DNA of 64,000 nucleotides from Escherichia phage UE-S5b, in the sequence record PP301341.1, one strand, 5' to 3'. Below the pieces are notes generated by a model. That model saw only the letters and a list, made by a program, of their open reading frames with translations, was not told the origin of the DNA and did no database searches. Position 1 is the stretch's first letter. Each line of letters begins with the position of its first letter. This document shows, in pieces, positions 1 through 56,182 of the stretch. Both the position numbers and the translations under genes were made by a program.

Positions 1-2321
1 CCACTGGTATTCTTACCAACAAACAAGCCATTGCCCGTAAGTTTGGTGTTAAGCAGAATGAGGTTGTTTACTTTGCTGTAGGTGTAGACTTAGGGGAATA
101 CAAGGTCATTTATGATAAGACTACCCAGCGAGCTTACTCATTACCTGCAGACCTTGGTTCAGGGGTTACTGCTGTAAGCCTTAATACTGCCGGTGTGTTA
201 GTTCACTCTACTGGTAATGTTGACCTGGGTGCACTAGCTGTTTCACGAGGAGAGTTTATAACAGTCCCTGGGTCCTTCTCTTTGGGTTATGAGATTAAAG
301 TAAAGAATGAATGTCTTGAATACCAGGGTGGGTTGTATCGATGGGATGGCGCACTGCCAAAGGTTGTAGATGCTGGGTCTGTTCCTGATATTGGTACAGG
401 AAAGTGGCTGAGCGTCGGTGATGCAGCCCTGCGCAGCCAGATTTCAGACCCGGATGGTGCGTCCAGTTACCCTGAATTGCAGATGGCAAGATGGCGTGAT
501 GAGGGTGATGTTCGAGGCTGGGGTGCTAAAGGGGATGGTGTAACAGATAGTACGGAGAATATAGCTGCTTCACTAAATTCTCAAAAAGCTGTCGTAGCAT
601 CAGACGGTGTATTCTCTAGTTCTGGTATTAATAGTAATTACTGTAACTTAGACGGTAGAGGCAGTGGTGTACTAAGTCACCGTTCAAGTACAGGTAACTA
701 CTTAGTATTTAACAATCTACGCTCAGGTCGCTTAAGTAATATTACGGTAGAAAGTAATAAGGCGACCGATACCACTCAAGGGCAGCAGGTATCTCTTGCT
801 GGTGGCAGTGATGTTACTATAAGTGATGTTAATTTCTCAAACGTTAAGGGCGCTGGTTTCAGTTTAATCACATACCCTAATGATGCACCCTCTGATGGGC
901 TTATGATTAAAGGCATTCGAGGTAGCTACTCCGGCTATGCTACTAATAAGGCGGCTGGATGCATACTTGCTGATTCCTCGGTTAACTCCCTCATAAATAA
1001 CGTCATTGCTAAGAACTACCCTCAGTTCGGGGCTGTAGAACTGAAAGGTACAGCCAGTTATAACATAGTCAGCAATGTTATAGGGGCAGACTGCCAGCAT
1101 GTAACTTACAACGGTACAAAAGGGTCAATAGCTCCCTCTAACAACCTTATCAATGGGGTAGTGGCTAATAATCCTAAATATGCAGCGGTTGTTGCAGGCA
1201 AAGGTAGTACCAACTTAATCTCAGATGTGCTTGTAGATTTCTCAATCTCTGACGCTAGTCAGGCTCACGGTGTTACAGTAGAAGGCTCTGATAACGTAAT
1301 AAGCAATGTGCTTATGTCAGGATGTGATGGTACTAACTCTTTAGGGCAAGCTCAAACTGCTACAATTGCGCGCTTTATAGATACAGCTAATAACAACTAT
1401 GCGTCTGTATTTCCTAGCTACAGTGCTACAGGTGTTATTACTTTCGAATCAGGTTCTACCCGTAACTTCGTAGAGGTAAAGCATCCGGGAAGGAGAAACG
1501 ACCTTCTCAGTGCTACTGGTACTATTGAAGGTGCAGTTACTATTGACGGCACTAGTAATAGCAACGTAGTGCACGCACCTGCCTTAGGACAGTACATAGG
1601 TAGTATGTCAGGTCGGTTCGAATGGCGGATTAAGTCCATGTCACTTCCGTCAGGCGTTCTTACCTCGGCTGATAAATACAGAATGCTTGGGGATGGTGCT
1701 GTGTCATTAGCTGTAGGCGGGGGTACTTCTTCTCAAGTTCGCCTATTTACTTCTGATGGTACTTCTCGGACAGTATCACTCACCAACGGTAACGTGCGTC
1801 TTCCTACCAGTAGCACAGGTTATTTGCAGTTAGGTTCTGATGCAATGACCCCAGATAGTACTAATACATACGCATTAGGTTCCGCAAGTAGAGCATGGTC
1901 TGGCGGTTTTACTCAATCAGCATTCACTGTTGTCTCAGATGCTAGGGATAAAACAGAGCCTCTTAATATCTCAGATGCTTTACTGGATGCTTGGTCTGAA
2001 GTTGACTTTGTGCAGTTTCAGTACTTGGACAGGATTGAGGAGAAGGGTGCAGACTCAGCCAGATGGCACTTTGGTATCATCGCTCAGCGAGCTAAGGAGG
2101 CTTTCGAACGTCACGGCATAGATGCACATCGCTATGGCTTCCTGTGCTTCGACAGTTGGGATGATGTATACGAGGAAGATGCCAATGGCTCTCGTAAACT
2201 GATTACACCAGCAGGTTCCCGCTACGGTATTCGTTACGAGGAAGTACTGATATTAGAGGCTGCGTTGATGCGGCGTACTATTAAGCGTATGCAGGAAGCA
2301 TTAGCTGTTATGTCTAAGTGA
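1..2321 (+). CDS. tail fibre/tailspike protein, 5'-truncated at window edge, with C-terminal intramolecular chaperone (peptidase S74-like) domain
   Basis: Frame 3 is open from position 3 with no stop, so the ORF-track GTG start at 195 is not the real start. Ser/Thr/Gly/Asn-rich repetitive beta-rich body typical of fibre/spike proteins. C-terminal SDARDK motif (1935-1952) followed by about 125 aa resembles autoproteolytic chaperone domains of T5 pb1 and K1F endosialidase. Confidence 0.7.
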   Translation, partial: TGILTNKQAIARKFGVKQNEVVYFAVGVDLGEYKVIYDKTTQRAYSLPADLGSGVTAVSLNTAGVLVHSTGNVDLGALAVSRGEFITVPGSFSLGYEIKVKNECLEYQGGLYRWDGALPKVVDAGSVPDIGTGKWLSVGDAALRSQISDPDGASSYPELQMARWRDEGDVRGWGAKGDGVTDSTENIAASLNSQKAVVASDGVFSSSGINSNYCNLDGRGSGVLSHRSSTGNYLVFNNLRSGRLSNITVESNKATDTTQGQQVSLAGGSDVTISDVNFSNVKGAGFSLITYPNDAPSDGLMIKGIRGSYSGYATNKAAGCILADSSVNSLINNVIAKNYPQFGAVELKGTASYNIVSNVIGADCQHVTYNGTKGSIAPSNNLINGVVANNPKYAAVVAGKGSTNLISDVLVDFSISDASQAHGVTVEGSDNVISNVLMSGCDGTNSLGQAQTATIARFIDTANNNYASVFPSYSATGVITFESGSTRNFVEVKHPGRRNDLLSATGTIEGAVTIDGTSNSNVVHAPALGQYIGSMSGRFEWRIKSMSLPSGVLTSADKYRMLGDGAVSLAVGGGTSSQVRLFTSDGTSRTVSLTNGNVRLPTSSTGYLQLGSDAMTPDSTNTYALGSASRAWSGGFTQSAFTVVSDARDKTEPLNISDALLDAWSEVDFVQFQYLDRIEEKGADSARWHFGIIAQRAKEAFERHGIDAHRYGFLCFDSWDDVYEEDANGSRKLITPAGSRYGIRYEEVLILEAALMRRTIKRMQEALAVMSK

Positions 2322-2400
2322 GTAATACTGGTACGGTTAGATCAGTAGAGTTGGTTAACAGTAGCCTACGTACTACCAGGCTATTACTTATCTAGGTATA

Positions 2401-2430
2401 AAACCCCGCTCAGGCGGGGTTTGTTTTTAT
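2401..2430. terminator. bidirectional rho-independent terminator
   Basis: Hairpin ACCCCGC-TCAG-GCGGGGT preceded by an A-run and followed by TTTGTTTTTAT; sits between the end of the + tail fibre gene and the end of the - gene 2447-3073. Confidence 0.6.
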
Positions 2431-2446
2431 CTATTAATAATATTTC

Positions 2447-3073
2447 TTATATAGAGTTTACTGTTTGCATTGCCCTAATTGATACTGCTGTTAGGGTAAT
2501 TACTTGTCCTGAGATATTAAACATACCTAACTGAATACCGTCTACCATGAAAGGGTCAGTTGAACCAAGTGTGTAAGTAGCCAGTACGTTATCTCTGTTA
2601 GCAATGTCTGTACCCTGTACTTTAACACTAGCATCTGAACCTACTATCGTAATTCCATTGGTTCGTCTTGTTTGTGTTCTCCATTCCCTTGCTGTACCTG
2701 CACCACCTGCAATAATTCCTGATATACGAACACTGAACATTACCTGGGTATTCCTGGTTCTAATGGGGAACTTAAGATTTCCTTCTTCAATTGTTAGTGC
2801 TGCTGTACCTCCAGGTGATTTAGTTATCCCTGGTAATGAAAAGTAATTGAACCAGGATTGGTCATTTACTGCCTGGCTCCCGGTCCATGTATACAAGTCC
2901 AGAAGNAATGTGTCTTCTAACTCTGTTGGTGGGAAAGGTAGTAGTTCTGGGGGGATCTCTGAGATGTTATTAGCAGAAACTATTCGTTCCCCATAACTTC
3001 CCACGACCAACAATCCCCCCTTCATTTTGCACACAACATCCNTACCACTTTGGAAAATATCTTTAATAGACAT
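2447..3073 (-). CDS. hypothetical beta-rich protein (possible tail/adsorption accessory), antisense to the late operon
   Basis: ORF 2447-3100; ATG at 3073 preceded by GAGGT (5 nt spacer), whereas the track start at 3100 is GTG. Contains two N-derived X residues. Confidence 0.45.
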   Translation of the reverse strand: MSIKDIFQSGXDVVCKMKGGLLVVGSYGERIVSANNISEIPPELLPFPPTELEDTXLLDLYTWTGSQAVNDQSWFNYFSLPGITKSPGGTAALTIEEGNLKFPIRTRNTQVMFSVRISGIIAGGAGTAREWRTQTRRTNGITIVGSDASVKVQGTDIANRDNVLATYTLGSTDPFMVDGIQLGMFNISGQVITLTAVSIRAMQTVNSI

Positions 3074-3197
3074 AGTTACCTCGCAGTTGATACCAGACAC
3101 TATGTCTGGATGTATCCCATCATACTAAGTATTATCTAAGAGTCATCTTATGATACGACCCTATTGGGGTTCTTAACTTTACAACTACGGTAATATT

Positions 3198-3527
3198 ATG
3201 AATGAATCGGGCGAACTGCTTCTAGTCAGACTGGAGGAACGATTGAAGACTCTGTTTGAGAATCAGACGAGAGACAGACAGGACCGTGAGAAACTGGAGG
3301 AAACTCTGGGAGAATTACGGGATTCAATCAATGACATAGGCAATAGACTAAAAAATGTGGAGGATAGCTTAGCTAAGAATGAACCTACTATTGAAGAGTT
3401 CATCACCATTAAGCATAAAGTTGTTGGTGCTGGAATTTTTGGTAAGTGGGTATGGGCTGGAGCAGGTGCAATTATTGGTGTATTGGCTGCTGCAAGACGG
3501 GAGATATTCGCATGGTTCGCAGGCTAA
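3198..3527 (+). CDS. coiled-coil protein with C-terminal glycine-zipper transmembrane helix (possible lysis regulator/holin-like)
   Basis: N-terminal charged heptad-rich 75 aa, C-terminal VVGAGIFGKWVWAGAGAIIGVLAAA hydrophobic helix; immediately upstream of the lysis genes. Confidence 0.5.
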   Translation: MNESGELLLVRLEERLKTLFENQTRDRQDREKLEETLGELRDSINDIGNRLKNVEDSLAKNEPTIEEFITIKHKVVGAGIFGKWVWAGAGAIIGVLAAARREIFAWFAG

Positions 3528-3772
3528 AAAGAAAAGTAGAGTTAGTACCTAACTGGAAAAGNTGNTGGAANTGGGCATCCATTCANATTAGTACNNTTGG
3601 TTTANTTCTATTNTCNGCTNTAGATATNATCCAACCAATGGTGACAGGATTACCTCGTCACATCTTGGAAGATATTCCCCATGGTTCCAATATTGCAATC
3701 GCACTGTTTGCCTTAAACATCATAGGCAGATTAATACGATTCCGACCAAAGGAAGATTCACATGAAAGCTAA
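3512..3772 (+). CDS. putative small holin (two predicted TM segments); sequence contains multiple N
   Basis: ATG at 3512 preceded by GGGAGA; basic N-terminus MVRRLKRK then two hydrophobic stretches (second is SNIAIALFALNIIGRLI); overlaps the endolysin start by 11 nt. Ambiguous bases at 3540-3630 make the frame uncertain. Confidence 0.35.
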   Translation: MVRRLKRKVELVPNWKXXWXWASIXISXXGLXLXXAXDXIQPMVTGLPRHILEDIPHGSNIAIALFALNIIGRLIRFRPKEDSHES

Positions 3773-4397
3773 ACAGAAACTTGCTGCAAAAGGTGGTGCA
3801 GTGGGAGGGGTTATCGCTGCTATTCTGGGGGCAGTGTTCTATATGGAAGGAGGTTATGTAAACAATCCTCGTGACCCAGGTGGGGAAACTAATCATGGTA
3901 TTACCCAATCAGTAGCTAAGACTCATAAAGAAGTTCTGGCTACTGAGTANGGTTGGGATGGTTCTATGAAGGGTTTATCTAAAGAGATGGCTGCTGAGAT
4001 ATACATTGATGACTATGTACTTAAACCTAACTTCGTAGCCTTCGCTGATATATCTCCTGCTGTAACGCATAAGCTAGTAGATGCTGGTGTTAATACTGGT
4101 GTAACCCGTCCTGCTAAGTGGTTGCAGATGTCTCTTAATGAAATGTCACGTAATGGCAAAGACTACCCTAAAATACAGGTTGATGGTAAAGTCGGTACAA
4201 GTACTGTTAATGCATATAAAGCATTACAGAAAAAACGGGGCAAAGTTGCAGCATGTCAGGTAATGATTAAGCTGCTTGATGCTAAACAACTGAACCACTA
4301 TACCTCATTAAACATGCCAGACTTTACGTATGGTTGGGTAGCTAACCGAATAGGCAATGTGCCACTGGAGGCATGTAATGAAGATGCTAATCTCTAA
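3762..4397 (+). CDS. endolysin, N-acetylmuramidase of glycoside hydrolase family 108 with C-terminal peptidoglycan-binding domain and N-terminal signal-anchor (SAR-like)
   Basis: Canonical GH108 motif EGGYVNNPRDPGGETNHGIT; N-terminal hydrophobic stretch AKGGAVGGVIAAILGAVFYM; position matches N4 gp61. Confidence 0.85.
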   Translation: MKAKQKLAAKGGAVGGVIAAILGAVFYMEGGYVNNPRDPGGETNHGITQSVAKTHKEVLATEXGWDGSMKGLSKEMAAEIYIDDYVLKPNFVAFADISPAVTHKLVDAGVNTGVTRPAKWLQMSLNEMSRNGKDYPKIQVDGKVGTSTVNAYKALQKKRGKVAACQVMIKLLDAKQLNHYTSLNMPDFTYGWVANRIGNVPLEACNEDANL

Positions 4398-4884
4398 AGG
4401 TTGGCCTTATCTTCTGGTGGTGGTCCTTGGGGCCACCATTTACTTTTGGGGCAATTCCAATGGGCAGTCTACTGTTCAAAAGAAATGGGATGCCCAAAAG
4501 GTCGAAGACCAAAAGGCAACGCAAAAATTACAGGACAAATACAATGCTCTCCAAAGAAACCATAGTTATGAAGTCGGGTTACTCACTTCCCGGTTGCAGA
4601 CGGCTGAGAGTAATTACGCAAGCGAGCTTGCTCGCGTTAGCAGTGATTACGACAGCCGGATGCAACAGTCTGAAAGACGAGCATCGGTATATAAACGTCA
4701 AGCCGAAGCCGGAACCCTTGAGTGCAGAAGTCTTGCAAGCCATGCAGCCAGACTCGACAATAGTCTTGAAGAAGGCAGACGTTTGGTTGAAGAACTCCGG
4801 GCAACTGTTAGACTCCGTGACAGCCAACTAATTGAGTTGGGTAAACAGATTCAGGCTGACCGTAAACTTTTTGAACAGGAATAA
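4378..4884 (+). CDS. i-spanin (Rz-like): N-terminal TM anchor plus periplasmic coiled coil
   Basis: ATG 4378 preceded by GGAGG; [26 protein letters not shown] helix followed by a charged coiled-coil region; directly follows the endolysin. Confidence 0.65.
4568..4831 (+). CDS. o-spanin (Rz1-like lipoprotein) embedded in the +1 frame of the i-spanin gene
   Basis: +1 frame ORF inside 4378-4884; hydrophobic signal followed by lipobox-like ITTAGC; proline-rich short mature part; classic embedded Rz/Rz1 architecture. Confidence 0.55.
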   Translation: MKSGYSLPGCRRLRVITQASLLALAVITTAGCNSLKDEHRYINVKPKPEPLSAEVLQAMQPDSTIVLKKADVWLKNSGQLLDSVTAN

Positions 4885-4886
4885 CT

Positions 4887-7157
4887 ATGGAACACCAAGA
4901 CACTTTTAAGCCTTTACCAGACCCGGCTCAATCAGAGAAGTTAACGGACTGGAAGAAGGAACCAAGTATCCAATTACTGAAGGGTGATTTGGAATCTGCT
5001 AAACCTGCTCACGATGCAATCATGGCACAGATTCGTGAGTGGAATGATTTAATGGAAGTAAAGGGTAAGGCTAAACCCCCAAAGGTTAAGGGACGCTCGC
5101 AAGTCCAGCCTAGACTGGTTCGCCGTCAGGCAGAGTGGCGTTATGCTCCATTGTCTGAACCATTCCTCTCGTCTAACAAACTATTTAAGGTAACTCCGGT
5201 TACTTTTGAAGATGAGTTAGCTGCACGCCAGAATGAGCTAGTTCTTAACTACCAATTCCGTACTCAGCTTAATAAAGTAAAACTGGTAGATGATTACGTG
5301 CATAGTGTCGTAGATGACGGTACTGGTATTGCTCGTATCGGTTGGGAACGTAAGACTATTAAGATTAAAACAGAAACTCCAGTCTTCCAGTTGTATCCAA
5401 TTGAGAACCAGGAACAAGCAGATGTTCTCCAACAGGCTTTGCAGCTTCAGGCAGAGAATCCCCGTGAGTATGACGAAACAATGCCAGAAGATATCAAAGA
5501 AGCTGTTAACTACTTCAATGAAACTGGAGAAGCTACTTATGCAATTCAGACAGGGGTCACTGAAGTAGAAGTAGAAAAAGCACTGGTTAACAGACCTACC
5601 GTTGAAATGCTTAATCCTAATAACGTAGTTATTGACCCGAGCTGCAATGGTGATTTGGATAAGGCTCTGTATGCAGTCATTTCCTTTGAGACTTGCAAAG
5701 CAGACCTTATGAAAAACAAAGACCGTTATCACAACCTAGATAAAATTGACTGGGAGAGTTCCAGCCCCATTACTGACCCAGACCATGAAAGTAAAACCCC
5801 TAGCGATTTCCAGTTTAAGGATGCACTTCGTAAGAAGGTAGTTGCTTATGAGTACTGGGGATTCTACGACATCAATGATGATGGTTCACTGGAACCAATT
5901 GTTGCTACCTGGATTGGTTCTACTCTTATTCGTATGGAGAAGAACCCATTCCCAGATGGTAAGTTACCATTGGTAGTTGTTCCTTATATGCCTCGTAAAC
6001 GTGAACTCTATGGTGAAGCTGATGCTGAATTGCTAGGAGATAACCAAGCAATTCTTGGTGCAACCATGCGTGGGATGATTGACCTGTTGGGCCGAAGTGC
6101 AAATGGTCAACGTGGTTATCCTAAAGGGATGTTAGATACCCTGAACCGTCGTCGATACGATGATGGACAAGACTACGAATATAACCCAATGCAGGGCAAT
6201 CCTAGTCAGGCCATTATGGAACACAAGTTCCCTGAGTTACCCCAGTCGGCAATAGTAATGACTCAGATGCAAAACCAGGAAGCAGAAGCACTAACGGGTG
6301 TTAAAGCATTCTCGGGTGGTGTAACTGGTGAAGCTTACGGAGATGTAGCTGCTGGTATTCGTGGTGTACTAGATGCAGCATCCAAACGTGAGATGGCAAT
6401 CCTTCGTCGATTAGCTAAGGGTATGGCAGACATTGGTACTAAGATTTGTGCAATGAATGCTGTGTTCTTATCTGAGAAAGAAGTAGTACGTATTACTAAC
6501 GAGCAGTACGTAGAGATTAACCGTGAAGACCTTAAAGGTAACTTCGACATTGAGGTTGATATTAACACTGCTGAAATTGATAACCAGAAGTCCCAGGATT
6601 TGGGCTTCATGGTTCAAACACTAGGCAACACAGTTGACCAGTCTATTACGTTATCTCTTGTAGCTAAGATTGCAGAACTTAAACGTATGCCAGACCTTGC
6701 TCATGAGTTACGTACATGGCAACCACAACCAGACCCTATGGAAGAACAGCTTAAGCAATTGGCAATTCAGAAAGCACAGCTTGAGAACGAAGAGCTGCAA
6801 AGTAAGATTGCACTCAATATGGCTAAGGCTAAAGAGGCTGCTTCTAGTGGTGACCTTAAAGATCTGGATTATCTGGAACAGGAATCTGGTACTAAACATG
6901 CTCGTGACATGGAAAAACAAAAAGCACAATCTCAAGGAAACCAGAACCTTCAGATAACTAAGGCGTTGACAACACCTACTAAAGAAGGTGAAACTACCCC
7001 CAACATATCTGCTGCTGTTGGATATAACGCTTTGACTAATGGGAACTCTATACCAGAACGTGACTTAGCTGCACAACAAGACCCAGCTTATTCACTTAGT
7101 TCCCAATTCTATGACCCTAGCCAAGACCCAGCATCGGCTCTTGGCATGAACTTGTAA
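4887..7157 (+). CDS. portal protein (N4 gp59-like)
   Basis: 756 aa, position between lysis genes and capsid genes, size matches N4 portal; assigned by synteny and size rather than a specific motif. Confidence 0.75.
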
Positions 7158-7170
7158 GGCAGACCTTCAC

Positions 7171-7515
7171 ATGAGTAAAGAATCAACAATCGCAGGACTG
7201 GAACATCGACTGGAAGCTGCTAAAGGTGCAGTTGCACACGCAGAAGATGTACGTAAACTTTTGGAGTATCCACTGTTCCGTAAAGTAATTCTTCGTCAGT
7301 TCTGTGTGGAAGATTGTGCACGTTACGTGCAGGAGTCTGGTGACCCACTGCTTGAACCTAATAACCGTGCAGATGCATTGAACATGGCTCAAGCTGCTGG
7401 TCACTTACGTCGTTGGCTCGACCTCGCCATTCGTATGGGNGAAAANGAAGCTGACGTTATTCTNCAGGTAGAAGAAGAACTCGANGCAGTTCGTGCTGAA
7501 CCTGAAGANGAATAA
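7171..7515 (+). CDS. hypothetical head-assembly protein (N4 gp58-like position)
   Basis: 114 aa ORF between portal and scaffold-like gene; 3' end contains N. Confidence 0.45.
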   Translation: MSKESTIAGLEHRLEAAKGAVAHAEDVRKLLEYPLFRKVILRQFCVEDCARYVQESGDPLLEPNNRADALNMAQAAGHLRRWLDLAIRMXEXEADVIXQVEEELXAVRAEPEXE

Positions 7516-7534
7516 TTAACCGGAGATATTTCCT

Positions 7535-8755
7535 ATGACTACGGAAGCTGCAACCACAGCTTCCGACATTCTCGCAATGTCGGATGATGAGATTCTGAAT
7601 ATGGAAGCCCCAGCAGTTATCGCTGAGGAAGATACTTCCACTCAGAACAACCCAGAAACCAACGGCGTACAGACTCCTGATGAAGAAGTTGACACCTCTG
7701 CTGTTGAAGACCTACCAACCGAAGAAACCTCCCCTGAAACCGAACCAGTTGAAGAAGATGNAGCAAATTCTTTAACTTCTGATAAAGTTGATGATAAAGT
7801 TGTTGACACAGAAGTTGATAGTAACGGTAAGCCGATTACTAAAGCTGAACCTTCTACTNCTGAACCNGGCCAGGAACAGAAAGAAGAAGGCAAACAGTCT
7901 GAAGGTCTGCCTGCTGACTTCAACTATAAGGAAGGTTACGAGAAGTTGATGGCTCCTTTTAAAGCTAACGGCAAAATGATTACTCCCCGTTCACCGGAGG
8001 AGGCCATTAGCCTGATGCAGATGGGTGCTAACTATACTCGNAANATGCAAGAACTNCAGCCNTACCGTAAGGTAATGCTGATGTTACAGAACAACGGTTT
8101 AATGGATGAGGACAAACTCTCTTTCCTGATTGACCTGGATAAGAAGAATCCTGAGGCCATTAAGAAGTTGCTCAAAGACTCTGGTACAGACCCTCTGGAC
8201 TTTAACCCAGATGAGGAAATTAACTACCAGGGTGGCAATCACCGTGTTACCGACACCGAAGCAGATTTTGCAACCGAAATTGACGACTTAAAGTCTACTC
8301 AAGAAGGACAAGCTACATTAGGTGTTATTGGCTCGACATGGGATGCTGCCAGTAAAGATGCTCTTTATCAGAATCGTGGCTTACTCCATACGATTCACGA
8401 ACAGCGTGAGAATGGTATTTATGACACCATTGCTAACGAAGTGAATCGTCTTCAGATGTTAGGTCAGATTCCGGTAGGTACTCCGTTCATTCAGGCTTAT
8501 AACTACGTTGGCAACCTCCTTGCACAACAGGGAGCATTTAACCAAGTAGCTAAGCCTGAGCCGGTACAAGCAGTTAAACCAGCGGTTCAGCCGGTAGTGC
8601 GTGTAGCACAACCTAAGCAGACTCTGGCTAACAACGAGCAAGCTAAAGCAGCTTCCCTTAATCGGGCTGCTACACGCAAAGCAACACCTATTGTAAACCC
8701 ACTCGCCATGAGTGATGAAGATTTCGCTAAACTCCCAGTACCGGGTAGTCTTTAA
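7535..8755 (+). CDS. putative scaffolding protein
   Basis: 406 aa, highly acidic Glu/Asp/Thr-rich N-terminus, position immediately upstream of the major capsid gene; several N in the sequence. Confidence 0.4.
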   Translation: MTTEAATTASDILAMSDDEILNMEAPAVIAEEDTSTQNNPETNGVQTPDEEVDTSAVEDLPTEETSPETEPVEEDXANSLTSDKVDDKVVDTEVDSNGKPITKAEPSTXEXGQEQKEEGKQSEGLPADFNYKEGYEKLMAPFKANGKMITPRSPEEAISLMQMGANYTXXMQEXQXYRKVMLMLQNNGLMDEDKLSFLIDLDKKNPEAIKKLLKDSGTDPLDFNPDEEINYQGGNHRVTDTEADFATEIDDLKSTQEGQATLGVIGSTWDAASKDALYQNRGLLHTIHEQRENGIYDTIANEVNRLQMLGQIPVGTPFIQAYNYVGNLLAQQGAFNQVAKPEPVQAVKPAVQPVVRVAQPKQTLANNEQAKAASLNRAATRKATPIVNPLAMSDEDFAKLPVPGSL

Positions 8756-8771
8756 ACAGGAATAATACGAT

Positions 8772-9974
8772 ATGTTAAACTATAACGCTCCAATTGACGG
8801 TCAGAAATCTAGCATTGATGGTGCTGGTTCCGATCAGATGAATACCTTTTACTGGCTGAAGAAAGCTATTATTCAGTCTCGTAAAGACCAGTACTTCATG
8901 CCACTGGCTAACACCATTAACATGCCTAAGAACTATGGTAAGACTGTTAAGGTGTATGAGTACGTTCCACTGCTCGACGATAAGAACATTAACGACCAGG
9001 GCATTGATGCTAATGGTGCTACCATCGTTAATGGTAACCTGTATGGTTCTTCTAAAGACGTAGGTAACATCACTTCCAAACTGCCTCTGCTGACAGAGAA
9101 TGGTGGTCGTGTTAACCGTGTAGGCTTTACCCGTCTGTCTCGTGAAGGCTCCATCCATAAGTTCGGTTTCTTCTACGAATTTACCCAAGAGTCCCTGGAC
9201 TTTGATTCTGATGATCAACTGAAAGAACACCTGTCTCGCGAACTGATGAACGGTGCTGTACAGTTGACTGAAGCTGTTCTCCAGAAAGACCTGCTTGCTG
9301 CTGCTGGTACTGTATTGTATGCAGGTGCTGCTACTTCTGATGCTACCATCACCGGTGAAGGTTCTACTCCGTCTGTAGTTTCTTATAAGAACCTGATGCG
9401 TCTTGACCAGATTCTTACTGAGAACCGTACCCCGACTCAGACTACTATTATCACTGGTTCTAAACTGACTGATACCAAAGTACTTGGTGGTACTCGTGTA
9501 ATGTACGTTGGTTCTGAATTGGTTCCAGAACTGAAAGCGATGAAAGATCTGTTCGGTAACAAAGCATTCATCGAAATTCAGCACTATGCTGATGCCGGTA
9601 CTCTGATGAATGGTGAAGTTGGTTGTATCGACAAGTTCCGTATTATCCAGGTTCCTGAGATGCTGCATTGGGCAGGTGCTGGTGCTCAGGCTACTTCTAA
9701 CCCAGGCTATCGTTCTACTATGGTTGGTGGTCAGGAACACTACGACGTATTCCCGATGCTGGTAGTTGGTGATGACTCCTTCTCTACCATTGGCTTCCAG
9801 ACTGATGGTAAGTCTGTTAAGTTCTCCATCATGACTAAGATGCCTGGTAAAGAAACTGCTGACCGTAATGACCCGTATGGTGAAACTGGCTTCAGTTCTA
9901 TCAAGTGGTACTACGGTATCCTGGTTAAACGCCCAGAACGTCTGGCTATGATTAAGACTGTTGCTCCTCTGTAA
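8772..9974 (+). CDS. major capsid protein (N4 gp56-like)
   Basis: 400 aa, strongly biased high-expression codon usage, followed by a strong terminator, size and position match N4 major coat protein. Confidence 0.75.
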
Positions 9975-9990
9975 TAGTCCGAAATAAAAC

Positions 9991-10016
9991 AAGGGGGACT
10001 AATGTCCCCCTCTTAA
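9991..10016 (+). terminator. rho-independent terminator after capsid gene
   Basis: Hairpin AAGGGGGAC-TAAT-GTCCCCCTCTT directly after the stop codon. Confidence 0.6.
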
Positions 10017-10041
10017 TAAAACTGAATGAACCACAGGAAAT

Positions 10042-10683
10042 ATGAACATGAGCATTAACGATAAACCGACCACTGACGTAGAAGTGAACGTACAGGGCAA
10101 CGAAGATACCGTTAACGATATTGCAATGCCTAGCGAACTTGAAGTTCTTAAGCAACGTGCAACGTTGATGAATATCAAGTTCTCTAACAACATTTCCGTT
10201 GAAAAGCTTCGTGAGAAGATTGAAGCTGCACAAGTAAAAGATGAACCAGTATTAGAAGAAGCTGCCGTTAATCCGCTGGGTGAAAAACAGGAAGCTGGTG
10301 TTAAGAAGATGACTCTTGGTCAAAAGATTCGTGCAGAACAGACTCGACTGATTCGTGTACGTATCCAGAACCTTGACCCTAAGAAGAAAGACCTGCCAGG
10401 TGAGATTATCACCGTAGCTAACGAATATATGGGTACTGTGCGTAAGTTTGTTCCATTCGGTGAAGTAACCGACAATGGTTATCACATTCCGTATTGTATC
10501 TANGAGTTCCTTAAAGAGCGTAAGTTCATCAACATTACGACCCGTAAAGGTAAGAATGGCTTACCGGATATTCGTGCAACTGAAGCACGAGAGTTCTCCA
10601 TTGAGGTACTGCCTCCGTTGACTGAAGCTGAATTAGCTCAACTAGCTCAGGCACAGATTGCTGCTGGTAGCCTGAACGATTAA
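10042..10683 (+). CDS. virion structural protein (N4 gp55-like position)
   Basis: 213 aa ORF following capsid gene; AGGAAA upstream; one N-derived X. Confidence 0.5.
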   Translation: MNMSINDKPTTDVEVNVQGNEDTVNDIAMPSELEVLKQRATLMNIKFSNNISVEKLREKIEAAQVKDEPVLEEAAVNPLGEKQEAGVKKMTLGQKIRAEQTRLIRVRIQNLDPKKKDLPGEIITVANEYMGTVRKFVPFGEVTDNGYHIPYCIXEFLKERKFINITTRKGKNGLPDIRATEAREFSIEVLPPLTEAELAQLAQAQIAAGSLND

Positions 10684-10703
10684 CGTATAAGCTACAGTTC
10701 AAC

Positions 10704-10741
10704 ACGGCTCACTGGGGTAACTCCGTGGGCCGTTTCTTTTT
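10704..10741 (+). terminator. rho-independent terminator
   Basis: 9 bp stem ACGGCTCAC/GTGGGCCGT (one G-U) followed by TTTCTTTTT. Confidence 0.6.
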
Positions 10742-10759
10742 GAACCAAGAGGAATGATT

Positions 10760-11596
10760 ATGTCTTGTTCTGCTGAGGTAGAAGCTAACCGACTCCTAGA
10801 AGAGTTAACTAAGGGTGATGACTTTACCCTTCCTGATGTTGATATGACTGGCCCCGAATGGGATATCCCTGGTGGGGATGCTTCCCCAATCTTTGGTGCT
10901 ATTGATAAAATATCCAATGAATCACTCACTACCCGTGAAGTTGGTGGTAGTGGTACGTTTGATGCATTAATGGAATCTGCACACAATCATCTGAAAGCTG
11001 AGTTTAAAGCTAACCGTATTACCGGTGGTGAATATACCAAAGCATACATTGCTATGATGGAATCTTGCATGAGCAATGCTGTTCAGTTCTTACTTGGTCG
11101 TGACCAGGCATACTGGGCTGCTGCTATGGCACAGATTCAGGCAGTTACTGCTCGTGTTCAACTGGCAACGTCTAAAGCACAGTTTGTGCTGGCTAAGATT
11201 CAGGCACTGTCTGCTAAGAGTGAGTATGCTCTTACTAAGATGAAGATTGCTACTGAGTCTGAAACATACTGTGCTGCATTGTTTAATGTTAGTCAGATGT
11301 TACCTCAACAGCTTAAATTGCTTACTGAGCAGACTGAAGCACAACGTGCACAGACACTTGATACCCGTAGTGATGGAGCTACTGTTACTGGTTCTGTAGG
11401 TAAACAGAAAGAGTTGTACTCACAACAGATTACTTCTTATCAACGTGATGCAGAGGTTAAAGCATCTAAGCTGTTTACTGATGCATGGATTACTCAGAAG
11501 ACTATTGATGAAGGCTTGAATCCACCAAATGGTTTCACTAACGCAAGTATTGACACCATTCTGACCAAGCTGAAGTCTAACAACGGGCTGAACTAA
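10760..11596 (+). CDS. virion structural protein (N4 gp54-like position)
   Basis: ORF 10754-11596; second ATG at 10760 has better spacing to AAGAGGAA. Gln/Ala-rich predicted helical protein. Confidence 0.5.
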
Positions 11597-11597
11597 T

Positions 11598-14252
11598 ATG
11601 GGCTTATTCAGTGGGAAGACCAAAGTATACGTAGCATCCTCTGTCTATAACATGGCAGGGGATATACATAAACGCCCTAACTATATGAAGACTGTAGTTA
11701 TAGGTAATATTGTTTCCAATACAGGATTCACTATGGCAGATACTATCTCTGATAGTTATCTGAATGGGCCAGGTATTCGTATGCGACTGTTCTCCAGCTG
11801 GAGTAAGAACCACTATGATTCAGTAGTTGGTATGGCTGGTTCTTCATTGGGTGTATTGGCTAAGATTGACCCTACCGTTATAGAGGGTCAAATTACACCC
11901 CCTGCTGGTGAATCAGTCTATGTTCAGGCAGCAGAGATTGGCTTTGCTGACTTTGAGCAATGGTGTGACCAGTATCTTTATGAGAATGCTCCAAGTCGAA
12001 TCATGGAACGATTCGACATAGATATTGATGAAGATACTAATGAAATCACTATGACCTCCTTAGATGGGGGCTCTACTATTACATTCACACCTACTAACTT
12101 TGAACCAGGTGCTTTATATCTCTATGCTGATTACTCATTCTATAAGNCCCCTTCTACTAATCCTCCGGTAGTAGGACCGACTACTGTCTATGATGATGAG
12201 GATGACTTACCTTCCACTTTGTTATGGACTACCGTCTCAAGTGATACGACGGCTAACACAACCAATCTTACTAAGACTATACATACTCATTCTGTTTACT
12301 CTGATGGCAGACCGGATGAAGACAGTACTGTCACAGAACCAAGTGTGGATAACTGGAACTCTTACGTTAAAGTTTATCGTAGAGGATTCACTGAGAAACC
12401 TGATGATGTGACTGTAGTTGTATCTGACAGGGTAATGACTCATACAAAATTTGGTGAGATTCAATCCAGTACTTCTGTAACTACTAATGTGGTTGATATA
12501 GGTGGAGGTGTTACTCGTACAGATACAATCACTACAACCACAGAGACACTGGTTCGTAAGTACTCATCCCAGACTACCCGTACTGATACCGAGATGACTG
12601 CTGTTAGTACACCTAAAATGCTTATTTATAAGCAGAACTCCGGTAACGTTGCACTGGATTCTTTGTTCGAGACTGAAGCTACTGATAACCGATTCTACCC
12701 ATTCATTCCAATCAGAAATGATAAGCAATGGGTAGAGAATGACCCAATCTACCCACACTGTAAGAAAGCCCTTTATAAAGCTACTGGTGGAAAAATTGAT
12801 AAAGTAGTCACAGAGCTTAAGAAGAATGATGACATAGGTGATATTCAGTACATCTATGGTTCATTTGGTGTATCCCTTAATACCCCCGAGGATAGTGCTA
12901 AGGAATACATCTATCGTTTCTTTCAGATGGCTACTGAAGCATTCCCACCTGACCCAACCTACCCAACACTGGAAGCAGTGATTGCAGGCTATCAGGCAGC
13001 AAATGATGCAGTTGACGCATATGTGGAATGGTGGAACAGGACTGAAGGGCATATTATTGGAACACCTCCACCACTGCCAGAATACCCAGTTATACCTAAG
13101 CGAGAGTTTAGGGTGCATAGTAATAAGCAGTACAAGTACGACATGACTATTGGCTGGAACTATGTATCTGAAACTACCCATTCAGGTCAAGCATGGTCTG
13201 GTGCTAAGCAGGGGCAACTTCGAGCCAGGTATGCAGGAGATATAACCCTTACTCGTAAGAACATAAGGACAGCTTCCAACTCCGGTTCTGCTAAGAAACT
13301 TGAGGTAACATACACATTCTATTCAATGCAGGAATACGAGTTGCTTTGGCAGGATGGTAATAATACCTATCGTAAACTTAGAGTACTGGGTCTAAATCAC
13401 AACAACAGGGTATATAAAAATAAGTCAGTGCACATTGATGTTGCCGAAGCAATGGGTGATGCAGAGGAGAGTGGATTCATTATTCCACTGCACACCAATA
13501 TCTACCGTTCAATGCCACTGGTTCGTAGCACTCAGTTATCCACTGCCTGCTCCTACTTAGTGATGAACTCATATAAGAAGGTTAAGCAGAAGTGGTATCA
13601 GACTGGGGCATTTAAAATTGTTGTTGTAGTGGTAGCTGTAGTTGTCTCTGTATTTACAGCAGGTGCTGGTGGTGCAGGTATACTTGGGGCATACGGTGCA
13701 GTCGGTGCATCACTTGGTTTTGTTGGATTAGCTGCTGTAATAGTTGGTGCTGTAGCAAACGCCATAGCTGCAATGATTCTGGTATCCATTATTACTAAAG
13801 TATCTACTTCACTGTTCGGTGATAAGCTAGGTTTTATCATTGCTGCTATTGCCTCAATGGTAGCCATGAACGTTGGTACTGCTTTGTCTACTGGTACATC
13901 CTTATCCTCTTTAGCTGGTGAAATGATGAATGCTCAAAACATCATGCAACTTACCAGTTCAGTGGGTAATGGCATTAGTCAGTATATTAATGCATCCACG
14001 GCTGCTACTATTCAGAAAGCAGAGAGTGTAATGCAGCAGTACAATACTGATATGATGGCAATCAATAAGCAGTATGAAGAGATGTTCGGTACTGCTGGAC
14101 AGGGTGTGATTGACCCCATGCAATTCGTGTCAATGGAGTCGTTGGATTCATTCTTGTCACGTACTCTCATGACTGGTTCAGATATAGCTGACTTGTCTTT
14201 AGACATGGTTGGCAACTACTCTGATATGACTCTTAATACTGACCTTGTTTAA
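11598..14252 (+). CDS. large virion protein with about 100 aa Gly/Ala-rich hydrophobic (multi-TM-like) segment; candidate ejection/channel protein (N4 gp53-like position)
   Basis: 884 aa; segment VVVVVAVVVSVFTAGAGGAGILGAYGAVGASLGFVGLAAVIVGAVANAIAAMILVSII... near residues 660-760. Confidence 0.6.
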   Translation: MGLFSGKTKVYVASSVYNMAGDIHKRPNYMKTVVIGNIVSNTGFTMADTISDSYLNGPGIRMRLFSSWSKNHYDSVVGMAGSSLGVLAKIDPTVIEGQITPPAGESVYVQAAEIGFADFEQWCDQYLYENAPSRIMERFDIDIDEDTNEITMTSLDGGSTITFTPTNFEPGALYLYADYSFYKXPSTNPPVVGPTTVYDDEDDLPSTLLWTTVSSDTTANTTNLTKTIHTHSVYSDGRPDEDSTVTEPSVDNWNSYVKVYRRGFTEKPDDVTVVVSDRVMTHTKFGEIQSSTSVTTNVVDIGGGVTRTDTITTTTETLVRKYSSQTTRTDTEMTAVSTPKMLIYKQNSGNVALDSLFETEATDNRFYPFIPIRNDKQWVENDPIYPHCKKALYKATGGKIDKVVTELKKNDDIGDIQYIYGSFGVSLNTPEDSAKEYIYRFFQMATEAFPPDPTYPTLEAVIAGYQAANDAVDAYVEWWNRTEGHIIGTPPPLPEYPVIPKREFRVHSNKQYKYDMTIGWNYVSETTHSGQAWSGAKQGQLRARYAGDITLTRKNIRTASNSGSAKKLEVTYTFYSMQEYELLWQDGNNTYRKLRVLGLNHNNRVYKNKSVHIDVAEAMGDAEESGFIIPLHTNIYRSMPLVRSTQLSTACSYLVMNSYKKVKQKWYQTGAFKIVVVVVAVVVSVFTAGAGGAGILGAYGAVGASLGFVGLAAVIVGAVANAIAAMILVSIITKVSTSLFGDKLGFIIAAIASMVAMNVGTALSTGTSLSSLAGEMMNAQNIMQLTSSVGNGISQYINASTAATIQKAESVMQQYNTDMMAINKQYEEMFGTAGQGVIDPMQFVSMESLDSFLSRTLMTGSDIADLSLDMVGNYSDMTLNTDLV

Positions 14253-14709
14253 CAGGAGAATCCCCATGGATTTGTCATTCTTAACAGGCAACCCAACTCC
14301 ACAGCCAGCTGCTATGTCTTGGATGTCTAATAACAATCAGAACTTTAATACCCCGGCTATGAACTATAACCCAGGTGCAACTATTGGTATGGGGGCAAAT
14401 ACAGGAGTAGCCTCCCCTACTTCTTTCCTGTCTGGTTCAGCTGATCAGTTGGGATTGAATGTACCTACCTTCCAATTAGGACTGGGTGCACTTGGTTCAT
14501 TAGCTAATATCTACAGTGGTTTCCAGGCTAATAAGTTAGCCAAAGACCAGTTGAACTTTACTAAGAGTGTTACTAACACTAACCTGAATAACCAGATTAA
14601 GTCTTATAACACTGCACTGGAAGATCGTGCTCGTAGCCGTGCTACAGCAGAGAACCGTGACCAGTCTACTGCTGATGCTTATATTGCAGCTAATAAATTA
14701 ACCCGTTAA
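14245..14709 (+). CDS. virion protein, hypothetical (N4 gp52-like position)
   Basis: 154 aa ORF overlapping the previous stop by 8 nt; Asn/Gly/Ser-rich. Confidence 0.5.
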   Translation: MFNRRIPMDLSFLTGNPTPQPAAMSWMSNNNQNFNTPAMNYNPGATIGMGANTGVASPTSFLSGSADQLGLNVPTFQLGLGALGSLANIYSGFQANKLAKDQLNFTKSVTNTNLNNQIKSYNTALEDRARSRATAENRDQSTADAYIAANKLTR

Positions 14710-14721
14710 TAGGAAACCATC

Positions 14722-16686: not shown

Positions 16687-16693
16687 TACTAAN

Positions 16694-16717
16694 AAAAGCC
16701 CTTCGGGGCTTTTTTCT
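16694..16717 (+). terminator. rho-independent terminator upstream of vRNAP gene
   Basis: AAGCCC-TTCG-GGGCTT followed by TTTTTCTT. Confidence 0.7.
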
Positions 16718-16724
16718 TACACAG

Positions 16725-16741
16725 GCTTACTGTAGAGTAAG
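16725..16741 (+). promoter_or_regulatory. perfect 7 bp inverted repeat with 3 nt loop upstream of vRNAP gene
   Basis: GCTTACT-GTA-AGTAAGC, 21 nt upstream of the vRNAP start codon region and downstream of a terminator. Confidence 0.3.
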
Positions 16742-16762
16742 CTTCCTATATACGATATAAGT

Positions 16763-55348: not shown

Positions 55349-56182
55349 TTATTCTACAACAGTAATAGCGATGGTTACATCGACCTTACCGTTGGTAACT
55401 ACTACAGAAGTAGCTTCACCAGCAGCCACTGGTTTAACCGTCAATACGTTACCGGCAATGGTAGCCGTAGCACGGGCAGAATCTGGGGTAGTCTTAATAG
55501 ACAAAGTACCAGCAGATGAACCAACAGGCATAGCAGCAATGGTTACAGTCTTACCGGCAGCAGTATCATCAGCAACAGACAGAGCCAGTGAATCAGGAGT
55601 AGCTACCAGTGAGCTTGCTTCATAGTAGCCTACTGCCAGCAACGACGTATCTTCTACAGTGGTTCCATTGGCATCAGTAACAATCACTTTATAAGTACCA
55701 GCAGAAGCAGCGGTTACGTTATTAAGAGTCAACGTTGCAGTAGCAGCAGATGCGTTATCACCAGAATCAATATCAGTGAATACTGCACCAGCGGTATCGG
55801 CTTTAAATTGCCATTTATAAGTAAACGGTGCTTTACCACCTGCTACATCAACATGCCAGTTAATATCTTCGCCTTCGATAGCAGAGATTACACGAGGCAG
55901 TTTAGTAGCAACAGTCAGTCGTGGAGTAGCTTTCATGTCAATAGAGATGGCTTGCATATCCACGATGTTGTTAGGCCAGAAGCCTGCTTCAGCAGGGTTT
56001 TTAGCAGAACGTTTATACAGCAGATTACGTACACCGTGAAAGATAACTAAACTATCCGGGTAAGTGGCATCTGGATGCACAAAAGTACCTACCTCTACGG
56101 AACCACCTGGGATAGAACCCCCTGCATCCAGTACAGTTGCAACATTGGTGGTTTTGTTAAAACCTACTTTTAAAGTTGGCAT
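55349..56182 (-). CDS. capsid decoration protein with Ig-like domains (N4 gp17-like)
   Basis: ATG at 56182 preceded by GAGGAAA; Thr/Ala/Val-rich beta-sandwich-like repeats; located after RNAP II genes as gp17 is in N4. The first 43 aa of the track ORF are rejected. Confidence 0.55.
   Translation of the reverse strand: MPTLKVGFNKTTNVATVLDAGGSIPGGSVEVGTFVHPDATYPDSLVIFHGVRNLLYKRSAKNPAEAGFWPNNIVDMQAISIDMKATPRLTVATKLPRVISAIEGEDINWHVDVAGGKAPFTYKWQFKADTAGAVFTDIDSGDNASAATATLTLNNVTAASAGTYKVIVTDANGTTVEDTSLLAVGYYEASSLVATPDSLALSVADDTAAGKTVTIAAMPVGSSAGTLSIKTTPDSARATATIAGNVLTVKPVAAGEATSVVVTNGKVDVTIAITVVE

What the first reader, a model, noticed from the sequence alone, without database searches (positions are those of the whole stretch)
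2401..3197. Opposite-strand gene inside the late region, sharing a bidirectional terminator with the tail fibre gene
The ORF at 2447-3073 runs antisense to the entire late operon, has a good Shine-Dalgarno, and lies in a divergent arrangement with the lysis genes. Such orientation flips in phage late regions often mark accessory or host-range determinants acquired separately (inference). The protein is beta-rich with no recognisable motif.
Basis: inference. Interest (0 to 1): 0.45.

Follow-up and report, generated by a model that had tools for sequence, protein, structure and literature searches.

The report
Accessory knob protein gene of an N4-like phage
The opposite-strand ORF is a real, expressed, dispensable phage gene whose protein joins a short N-terminal piece shared with a solved capsid-decoration protein to a TNF/C1q-like "knob", so it is most likely a small trimeric appendage on the virion; its function has not been tested.

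Summary
ORF 2447-3073(-) is the only minus-strand gene in the late block of a Gamaleyavirus (G7C/N4-like; 99.8% identical to Escherichia phage UE-S5a). It has a GAGG Shine-Dalgarno, converges on the tailspike gene across one hairpin (2401-2422), and diverges from the lysis cassette.

It is a true gene:
- dN/dS is 0.15 against Bp4.
- It matches PHROG 17779 full length.
- Its product ("G-9 protein") was detected by LC-MS/MS in particles of four near-identical phages.

The gene is not a recent insertion. Its position, convergent with the tailspike gene, is conserved across two Schitoviridae subfamilies, and its GC content is ordinary. It is accessory: most Gamaleyaviruses keep only a deleted remnant.

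Best reading: a trimeric virion-surface knob, probably capsid-anchored, binding a conserved ligand. Where it attaches and what it binds are inferred, not shown. Moderate interest; a new variant of a known kind.

The parts
2447..3073 (-). Coding sequence of the 208-aa accessory protein (stop at 2447-2449; ATG at 3073-3071). PHROG 17779; called 'G-9 protein', 'tail needle knob' or 'hypothetical' in UE-S5a/UE-M3, and orf14 in Bp4.
   Evidence: dN/dS 0.15; MS detection
2933..3073 (-). N-terminal module, residues 1-47 (K..GG..VG..GE.V..A...SE.P). Homologous to the N-terminus of Shigella phage B2 capsid decoration protein gp45 (PDB 9D82) and of B2 gp46. Low AF2 confidence (pLDDT 53-64).
2906..2932 (-). 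Proline-rich, length-variable linker, residues 48-56 (LPFPPTELE); lowest pLDDT (47-52).
2450..2905 (-). C-terminal TNF/C1q-like jelly-roll knob, residues 57-208, with the invariant motif GGAGTxREWRTQTRR. The 3' ~280 nt (2443-2722) also survive as unannotated remnants in Ackermannviridae genomes.
3079..3082 (-). Shine-Dalgarno GAGG, 5 nt upstream of the ATG.
   Evidence: conserved in Bp4
3119..3146 (-). Sigma-70-like promoter candidate for the ORF (ATGACT-16-TATGAT, 9 of 12 matches). Not validated, and conserved even in phages where the ORF is deleted.
3093..3109 (.). Conserved inverted repeat CCAGACA-CTA-TGTCTGG (7-bp stem, 3-nt loop) in the putative 5' leader of the ORF. Single copy in the window. 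Role unknown.
2401..2422 (.). G+C-rich hairpin between the convergent stop codons of the tailspike gene and the ORF; terminator-like on both strands.
195..2321 (+). Convergent neighbour: tailspike (Tail_spike_N anchor, K5-lyase-type body, S74 chaperone). It is incomplete at the window's 5' end; the full gene is 2355 nt in UE-S5a.
3198..3527 (+). Divergent neighbour: N4 gp63 homologue (pinholin in N4), first gene of the lysis cassette.

Best explanation
The ORF encodes a small, non-essential structural protein built from two modules.

- An N-terminal anchor of about 47 residues is specific to Schitoviridae. It is homologous to the N-terminus of the B2 capsid decoration trimer gp45.
- A proline-rich linker joins it to a C-terminal TNF/C1q-type jelly-roll knob. 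This is the domain that caps many phage fibres, such as the Sf6 tail needle and PRD1 P5.

Proposed mechanism (inferred): the protein is made late from its own promoter in the 3101-3197 spacer. It trimerises through the knob and docks by its anchor onto the virion surface, most probably the capsid lattice as gp45 does. The displayed knob would act as a weak adhesin or lectin for a conserved envelope component. It would help adsorption or retention but not define host specificity, which the swappable tailspikes provide.

Shown: the gene is real, it is translated, the two homologies and the fold hold, synteny is conserved, and the gene is dispensable. Inferred: trimer state, attachment site, ligand and timing.
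For: Gene and expression:
- Purifying selection, dN/dS 0.15.
- The 'G-9 protein' was found by LC-MS/MS in purified particles of UE-S5a, S5b, M3 and M6, which are 99.8-100% identical to the window.

Anchor module:
- A profile of the ORF family alone hits PDB 9d82_J 'B2 Dec Gp45' at E 3.4e-8 over residues 1-47. Pairwise, identity is 41% over 37 aa.
- In B2 the Dec gene gp45 is followed directly by gp46, a full-length homologue of the ORF (52% identity). gp46 shares 49% identity with gp45 over its first 45 aa.
- The rest of gp45 (residues 55-99) is a generic phi29-type head-fibre C-terminus, PF11133, shared with many unrelated phages. Its N-terminus is confined to Schitoviridae. That is the pattern expected of a particle-specific anchor joined to an exchangeable distal part.
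- The major capsid proteins of B2 and the window are 59% identical.

Knob module:
- AF2 gives a confident jelly roll.
- Foldseek adds the HS1 knob and the trimeric TNF-like lectins PLTL and BC2L-C.
- The domain sits at the extreme C-terminus of nearly all of about 150 listed representative proteins (159 hits at E <= 0.001). Its fusion partners include collagen repeats, tail-fibre repeats and a GDSL esterase.
- In the epsilon15-like phage PAT1, a knob-only relative is encoded between the portal and capsid genes.
Against: - No structure or localisation exists for this protein.
- The UE particle proteomes list 44-56 proteins, including holin, endolysin, rII and replication enzymes. Detection therefore proves translation, not virion attachment.
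- The B2 virion MS table does not list B2 gp46.
- The window phage also encodes an intact N4 gp17-type Ig decoration protein at 55352-56182. N4 gp17 domain I sits on every quasi-3-fold axis. The Moo19/B2 paper says the gp17-type and gp45-type proteins bind the same capsid positions. A gp45-like docking site may therefore already be occupied.
- gp17 is present in Gamaleyaviruses with and without the ORF, so there is no co-variation.
- Which part of gp45 touches the capsid could not be read with these tools.
- The anchor is modelled with low confidence.
Confidence: 0.45

Rival explanations
1. Tail-associated auxiliary receptor-binding protein. The knob trimer attaches to the tail or tailspike complex and helps recognise the cell surface. 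This is implied by the GenBank and paper labels 'tail needle knob' and 'G-9 protein, receptor binding protein'.
For: - The closest fold is the Sf6/HS1 tail-needle knob.
- Many relatives of the knob are tail-fibre tips.
- The gene always lies next to, and convergent with, a Tail_spike_N tailspike gene in four lineages.
- It was detected in particle preparations.
- A tail site would avoid the clash with gp17 on the capsid.
Against: - The protein has no gp26-like needle: no coiled coil and no gp10-binding N-terminus.
- The only homologue of its N-terminus is a capsid protein.
- It has no Tail_spike_N or other known tail-anchor domain.
- The knob is far more conserved than the neighbouring tailspikes.
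- Phages without the gene, such as G7C and St11Ph5, are fully infective, and the solved tails of Moo19 and B2 assign no such component.
Confidence: 0.22
2. Non-virion late protein. It would be a soluble trimeric lectin-like factor released at lysis or acting in the infected cell, for example on envelope glycans, aggregation or exclusion. In this reading it appears in particle preparations only as a contaminant.
For: - In Humphriesvirinae it lies in the same operon as holins, endolysin and spanin.
- The particle proteomes are clearly contaminated with non-structural proteins.
- B2 gp46 is not listed among B2 virion proteins.
- TNF-like lectins exist as free proteins.
Against: - There is no signal peptide or transmembrane segment in the sequence (by inspection).
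- The N-terminal module is shared with a protein solved on the capsid, encoded in that same operon.
- There are no PADLOC, Pfam or NCBIfam hits pointing to defence or enzymatic roles.
Confidence: 0.2
3. Protease, as labelled in several GenBank and NCBI records (Salmonella phages S5 and TR2, CLB_P1, Gekk3-15).
For: Database labels only. In PAT1 the knob-only relative sits next to a gene annotated 'putative endoprotease', which may be where the label came from.
Against: - There is no protease family hit in Pfam, NCBIfam or PHROGs.
- The fold is a TNF-like jelly roll with no peptidase among the top structural neighbours.
Confidence: 0.03
4. Chance antisense ORF or decaying pseudogene with no function in this phage.
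For: Long antisense ORFs do occur by chance in this genome, and the gene has been lost by deletion in many relatives.
Against: - dN/dS is 0.15.
- The reading frame is intact across 52-100% identical homologues.
- Peptides were detected.
- The Shine-Dalgarno sequence is conserved.
Confidence: 0.02

Closest known systems
Shigella phage B2 gp45 capsid decoration ('head fiber') protein, PDB 9D82 (Subramanian et al. 2024, PMC11654681)
   Same: - The N-terminal ~45 residues are homologous (E 3.4e-8 by profile; 41% pairwise).
- Both belong to Schitoviridae with 59% identical capsid proteins.
- Both are encoded between the lysis genes and the tailspike genes.
- gp45 is a trimer, and the knob fold of the ORF is trimeric in all its structural relatives.
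   Different: - gp45 is 99 aa and ends in a phi29-type head-fibre helix segment (PF11133). The ORF is 208 aa and ends in a TNF-like jelly roll.
- gp45-type phages lack gp17, whereas this phage has gp17.
- Capsid binding of the ORF product is untested.
B2 gp46 / Salmonella phage SP154 WIC41543 / FSL SP-058 homologues (uncharacterised; PHROG 17779)
   Same: True orthologues: full length, 52-67% identity, the same two modules, and the same position convergent with the tailspike gene.
   Different: In Ithacaviruses the gene is co-oriented with the lysis cassette and preceded by the paralogous gp45. In the window it stands alone on the opposite strand from all its neighbours.
Sf6 / HS1 tail-needle knob (gene 9 protein C-terminal domain; PDB 3RWN, 4K6B)
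   Different: Sequence identity is only 14%, with no Pfam-level sequence match. There is no needle coiled coil or tail-hub plug domain, and the N-terminal attachment module is different.
PRD1 P5 spike, BclA / C1q / TNF family, and TNF-like lectins (PLTL, BC2L-C)
   Same: The same trimeric jelly-roll fold placed at the distal end of a short stalk. Relatives of the ORF knob are fused to collagen-like repeats, exactly as in P5, BclA and C1q.
   Different: No sequence relationship is detectable, and no ligand-binding residues could be compared.
N4 gp17 / T4 Hoc-type Ig-like decoration proteins
   Same: Non-essential, surface-displayed, and possibly adhesive head proteins. gp17 is also encoded on the strand opposite to the late genes.
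   Different: The fold is unrelated (Ig domains). gp17 is present in this same genome, at 55352-56182.

Membership tests
PHROG 17779 (phage protein family, unknown function) | Full-length profile match | tested here: met
   E 4e-111; residues 1-207 match profile positions 4-207 of 208
B2 gp45-type capsid decoration / head-fibre protein | N-terminal ~45-residue module | tested here: met
   Profile of the ORF family against PDB 9d82_J: E 3.4e-8 over residues 1-47; BLASTP 41% over 37 aa, E 9e-8
B2 gp45-type capsid decoration / head-fibre protein | C-terminal phi29-type head-fibre segment (PF11133) | tested here: not met
   gp45 residues 55-99 hit PF11133; the ORF has no Pfam hit and carries a jelly roll instead
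B2 gp45-type capsid decoration / head-fibre protein | Binds the capsid lattice as a trimer | not testable with these tools
   Single-chain prediction only, and no coordinates of 9D82 were available. MS detection in particles is not specific.
Sf6-type tail needle (gp26/gene 9) knob | TNF-like jelly-roll fold of the knob | tested here: met
Sf6-type tail needle (gp26/gene 9) knob | Knob carried on a trimeric coiled-coil needle with an N-terminal tail-hub plug | tested here: not met
   Only ~56 residues precede the knob, and they match B2 gp45, not a needle
Sf6-type tail needle (gp26/gene 9) knob | Sequence-level family membership | tested here: not met
   No Pfam or NCBIfam hit at E <= 0.1 to 1; 14% identity in the structural alignment
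C1q/TNF superfamily | Ten-strand jelly roll forming a trimer | tested here: inconclusive
Protease (database label) | Recognisable peptidase domain or catalytic motif | tested here: not met
   No hits in Pfam, NCBIfam or PHROGs, and no peptidase among the top-ranked fold matches
Core N4-like (Schitoviridae) structural gene set | Present in N4 and in essentially all relatives | tested here: not met
   tblastn found 61 phage records, and N4 was not among the 60 listed. Most Gamaleyaviruses have only a deleted remnant.
Anti-phage defence / exclusion proteins (PADLOC) | Match to any defence-system model | tested here: not met
   0 families at E <= 1

The most novel reading that the evidence does not exclude
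Schitoviridae may have a modular 'anchor plus payload' system for capsid display. The same ~45-residue anchor would carry either a short helical cement or fibre (B2 gp45) or a TNF-like lectin knob (this ORF and B2 gp46). The head of these podophages would then bear a sub-stoichiometric adhesin, invisible to icosahedral averaging, that coexists or competes with the main decoration protein (gp17 or gp45). This would be a head-borne TNF-like adhesin in an N4-like phage, and a ready-made scaffold for phage display.
Probability: 0.35. Interest if true: 0.55.

Novelty: new variant of a known kind. Interest (0 to 1): 0.4.

Why it matters
Gamaleyaviruses and Ithacaviruses are being developed as therapeutic phages against UPEC, Shigella and Salmonella, and this gene is variously mislabelled in their records (hypothetical, tail needle knob, protease).

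- If the product is a head- or tail-displayed lectin knob, it is a second, conserved layer of surface binding beside the swappable tailspikes. It could affect adsorption, mucus or biofilm retention, and immunogenicity.
- The shared anchor with a solved decoration protein gives a concrete hypothesis that cryo-EM can test, and a possible display handle.
- Independently of function, the 3' end of the gene marks one boundary of a tailspike cassette exchanged between Schitoviridae and Ackermannviridae. This is useful for predicting and engineering host-range swaps.

Tried and rejected
- Pfam, NCBIfam and PADLOC scans of the ORF gave nothing.
- An Rfam scan of 2000-3600 gave only sub-threshold hits driven by the terminator hairpin.
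- The 'protease' label was rejected: no domain and no supporting fold.
- 'Recent foreign insertion' was rejected because of ordinary GC and GC3, conserved synteny in two subfamilies, and remnants in genomes that lack the gene.
- I searched for a second copy of the anchor module, that is, a gp45-like small Dec. Only the ORF itself was found in the 64-kb window and in the stretch of Bp4 examined (4625-17482). The ~6 kb of the UE-S5a genome that lies outside both the window and L001 was not scanned.
- A word-indexed protein search with the anchor alignment returned only fragments and was uninformative.
- I tested whether B2 gp47 equals the window's gp63 homologue, which would have implied a simple inversion. 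They show no similarity.
- I looked for co-variation between ORF presence and the gp17 allele. There is none: gp17 is present and 81-97% identical in carriers and non-carriers.
- The UE proteomics supplementary tables (peptide counts) are not held, so abundance could not be judged. The Moo19/B2 supplement holds no MS lists.
- Foldseek against the PDB did not recover 9D82 for the low-confidence N-terminus.
- The source of four Kayfunavirus megablast hits was not resolved; they did not recur.

Full report
**Context**

The window is a Gamaleyavirus (G7C-like, N4-related podophage, Schitoviridae). Bases 2300-3300 are 99.8% identical to Escherichia phages UE-S5a, UE-M3 and UE-M6, and 91-93% identical to Bp4, pSb-1 and nithesis.

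Around the finding the plus strand carries, in order:
- a tailspike gene at 195-2321, with a Tail_spike_N anchor, a K5-lyase-type body and an S74 chaperone;
- the lysis cassette: the gp63 homologue at 3198-3527, a holin, a GH108 endolysin at 3762-4397 and a spanin;
- the portal gene at 4887-7157, and so on.

**The observation**

ORF 2447-3073 on the minus strand encodes 208 aa from ATG 3073. The mechanical ORF starts at GTG 3100.
- GAGG at 3082-3079 sits 5 nt before the ATG and is conserved in Bp4. Homologues begin at the equivalent methionine, so ATG 3073 is the likely start.
- In Bp4's annotation the gene (orf14) is the only reverse-strand gene between terminase and vRNAP.
- A 9-bp G+C-rich hairpin at 2401-2422 lies between the two convergent stop codons. 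It folds well on both strands (-20.2 and -15.2 kcal/mol; z -5.1 and -4.1). It is followed by GTTTTT on the plus strand and by only UUUU on the minus strand.
- The divergent spacer 3101-3197 holds a sigma-70-like match on the minus strand (ATGACT-16-TATGAT, 3146-3119) and a mirror TATGAT at 3149-3154 on the plus strand.

The description is therefore accurate. The promoters remain unproven consensus matches.

**Is it a gene?**

Yes.
- It matches PHROG 17779 end to end (E 4e-111).
- A search of 5.8 billion proteins found 39 clusters at 57-92% identity, mostly on 70-75 kb contigs, with no frameshifts.
- Between UE-S5a and Bp4, dN is 0.042, dS is 0.286 and dN/dS is 0.15.
- Niaz et al. 2025 (PMC11927229) ran LC-MS/MS on purified particles of UE-S5a, S5b, M3 and M6. 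They report the 'G-9 protein' in all four.
- Those lists also contain holin, endolysin, rIIA/B and replication enzymes. They prove translation, not virion attachment.

**What the protein is**

It has two modules.

(a) The knob, residues 57-208. AlphaFold2 on a 16-sequence alignment gives a confident beta jelly roll (pLDDT mostly 70-95).
- Foldseek adds the HS1 knob, the phi812 central-spike knob and the trimeric TNF-like lectins PLTL and BC2L-C.
- BFVD matches include phage proteins annotated as Sf6-type knob, C1q or collagen-like.
- An exhaustive HMMER search of 1.84 billion representatives found 159 proteins of 44-1457 aa. The domain lies at the extreme C-terminus in nearly all of the 150 listed.
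- Fusion partners include a GDSL esterase, tail-fibre repeats and collagen repeats.

(b) The anchor, residues 1-47. A profile built only from the ORF family hits one solved structure, 9d82_J 'B2 Dec Gp45' (E 3.4e-8, residues 1-47 to 1-48). Pairwise identity is 41% over 37 aa.

B2 gp45 is the 99-aa homotrimeric capsid decoration protein of the Ithacavirus Shigella phage B2 (PMC11654681). The PDB entry holds nine gp45 chains alongside nine capsid chains per asymmetric unit.

The B2 genome shows that gp45 is followed directly by gp46. gp46 is a 211-aa full-length homologue of the ORF (52% identity). Its first 45 residues are 49% identical to gp45. The structure paper does not mention B2 gp46, and it is absent from their virion MS table.

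The C-terminal half of gp45 is a phi29-type head-fibre segment (PF11133) shared with many unrelated 'head fiber' proteins. Its N-terminus occurs only in Schitoviridae. This is what one expects if the N-terminal module is the particle-specific anchor and the C-terminal part an exchangeable distal domain.

By analogy with phi29 gp8.5, whose N-terminal base binds the capsid (my recollection of Xiang and Rossmann 2011, not checked here), the ORF would be the same anchor carrying a knob.

**Evolution and synteny**

The gene is not a recent insertion.
- Its GC content (41%) and GC3 are ordinary.
- The same gene lies convergent with a Tail_spike_N tailspike gene in another Gamaleyavirus-type contig, in Ithacaviruses and in a third metagenomic lineage.
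- In the Humphriesvirinae the whole lysis cassette shares its orientation. In Gamaleyaviruses the lysis cassette runs with the structural genes, and only this gene keeps the old direction.

It is dispensable.
- Of about 21 distinct Gamaleyaviruses matched, 8 have the intact gene.
- The rest keep the complete upstream spacer joined to a 35-107 nt remnant of the 3' end. ECBP1, ZQ2, PE007, PW8, PD205 and EC1-UPM share one breakpoint.

The knob is more conserved than the anchor (77% against 48% mean pairwise identity), unlike the neighbouring tailspikes, which differ between Bp4 and UE-S5a. That argues for a conserved ligand or partner, not a strain-specific receptor.

**Mechanism and its weak points**

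The best-supported reading is a trimeric surface appendage anchored like gp45 and displaying a lectin-type knob.

The main objection is that this phage also has an intact gp17-type Ig decoration gene at 55352-56182.
- N4 gp17 domain I occupies every quasi-3-fold axis.
- The Moo19/B2 paper states that gp17-type and gp45-type proteins bind the same capsid positions.
- gp17 occurs in carriers and non-carriers of the ORF alike, and no Salmonella phage record (most of the Ithacaviruses) appears among the organism names of the gp17 hits.

So either the ORF product competes sub-stoichiometrically with gp17, or it binds elsewhere on the particle (a tail site is the main rival), or it is not structural. 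I put these at roughly 0.45, 0.22 and 0.20.

**Comparison and novelty**

- The sequence family is already in databases and has been seen by MS, but it is functionally uncharacterised and inconsistently labelled.
- The link between its N-terminus and a solved capsid decoration protein was not mentioned in any paper read here, nor was the paralogy between B2 gp45 and gp46.
- The architecture (Dec-type anchor plus TNF-like knob) is a new variant of known head-fibre, decoration or fibre-knob proteins, not a new kind of system.

**Verdict**

The gene is accessory and related to surface binding. It was not separately acquired, it is not a variable host-range module, and it is not motif-less.
- Interest: 0.40.

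Noticed in passing
window 2443-2722 (3' third of the ORF); L003:4001-4268 (SKML-39): At least 10 Ackermannviridae genomes carry an unannotated remnant of the ORF's 3' end at 84-91% nt identity, directly downstream of a tailspike gene: SKML-39, A221, RPN242, PC3, PH4, LHE287, YX22, fGh-Ecl02, CAU_YEP3 and ZQ1. Most share the breakpoint at about window 2722. In SKML-39 the first ~500 nt of that tailspike gene also match the Gamaleyavirus tailspike anchor (75-78% nt). Two conserved arms therefore flank a variable tailspike body, which is the signature of cassette exchange between the two phage families.
   Followed up: partly
window 3093-3289 and 2390-2492, compared with Escherichia phage AV101 (OQ973471.1): The Ackermannviridae phage AV101 carries both the ORF-distal flank (terminator plus ORF 3' end) and the spacer plus gp63 5' region of the Gamaleyavirus locus, at two separate places about 2.4 kb apart.
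   Followed up: no
window 3093-3109: A perfect inverted repeat CCAGACA-CTA-TGTCTGG (7-bp stem, 3-nt loop) overlaps the alternative GTG start. It is single-copy in the window and fully conserved in ECBP1 and St11Ph5, where the ORF itself is deleted. It may belong to the divergent promoter or regulatory region. Its function is unknown.
   Followed up: partly
window 3042 (and 63 other N positions, e.g. 3562-3628, 7440-7509): The window contains 64 scattered Ns. The one at 3042 falls in codon 11 of the ORF. That is the single position reported to vary in the 'G-9 protein' among the UE phages, so the Ns may mark polymorphic sites of a consensus.
   Followed up: partly
window 3198-3527 (+): The divergent neighbour is the N4 gp63 homologue. 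A 2025-26 preprint (10.1101/2025.11.12.688109) shows N4 gp63 to be a C-terminally anchored pinholin that controls lysis timing. GenBank relatives nevertheless label it 'tail needle protein gp26' or 'tail length tape-measure protein', which looks like a misannotation.
   Followed up: partly
L004:6609-7621 (Shigella phage B2 gp45-gp46): The solved decoration protein gp45 and the adjacent uncharacterised gp46 share a paralogous N-terminus (49% over 45 aa). gp46 is not discussed in the structure paper and is not in its virion MS table. A minor second capsid ligand may have been averaged out.
   Followed up: partly
window 8775-9992 (-): A 405-aa TTG-initiated ORF runs antisense across the whole major capsid gene (8772-9974, +). 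It is probably a chance ORF, and it shows that ORF length alone is weak evidence in this genome.
   Followed up: no
L006:3917-4462 (Salmonella virus PAT1, Uetakevirus): A knob-only relative (181 aa, 55% identical to ORF residues 55-205) is encoded in the head module of an epsilon15-like phage, between the portal gene and a gene annotated 'putative endoprotease' that is followed by an unannotated 328-aa gene. That neighbour may be the origin of the spurious 'protease' label.
   Followed up: no
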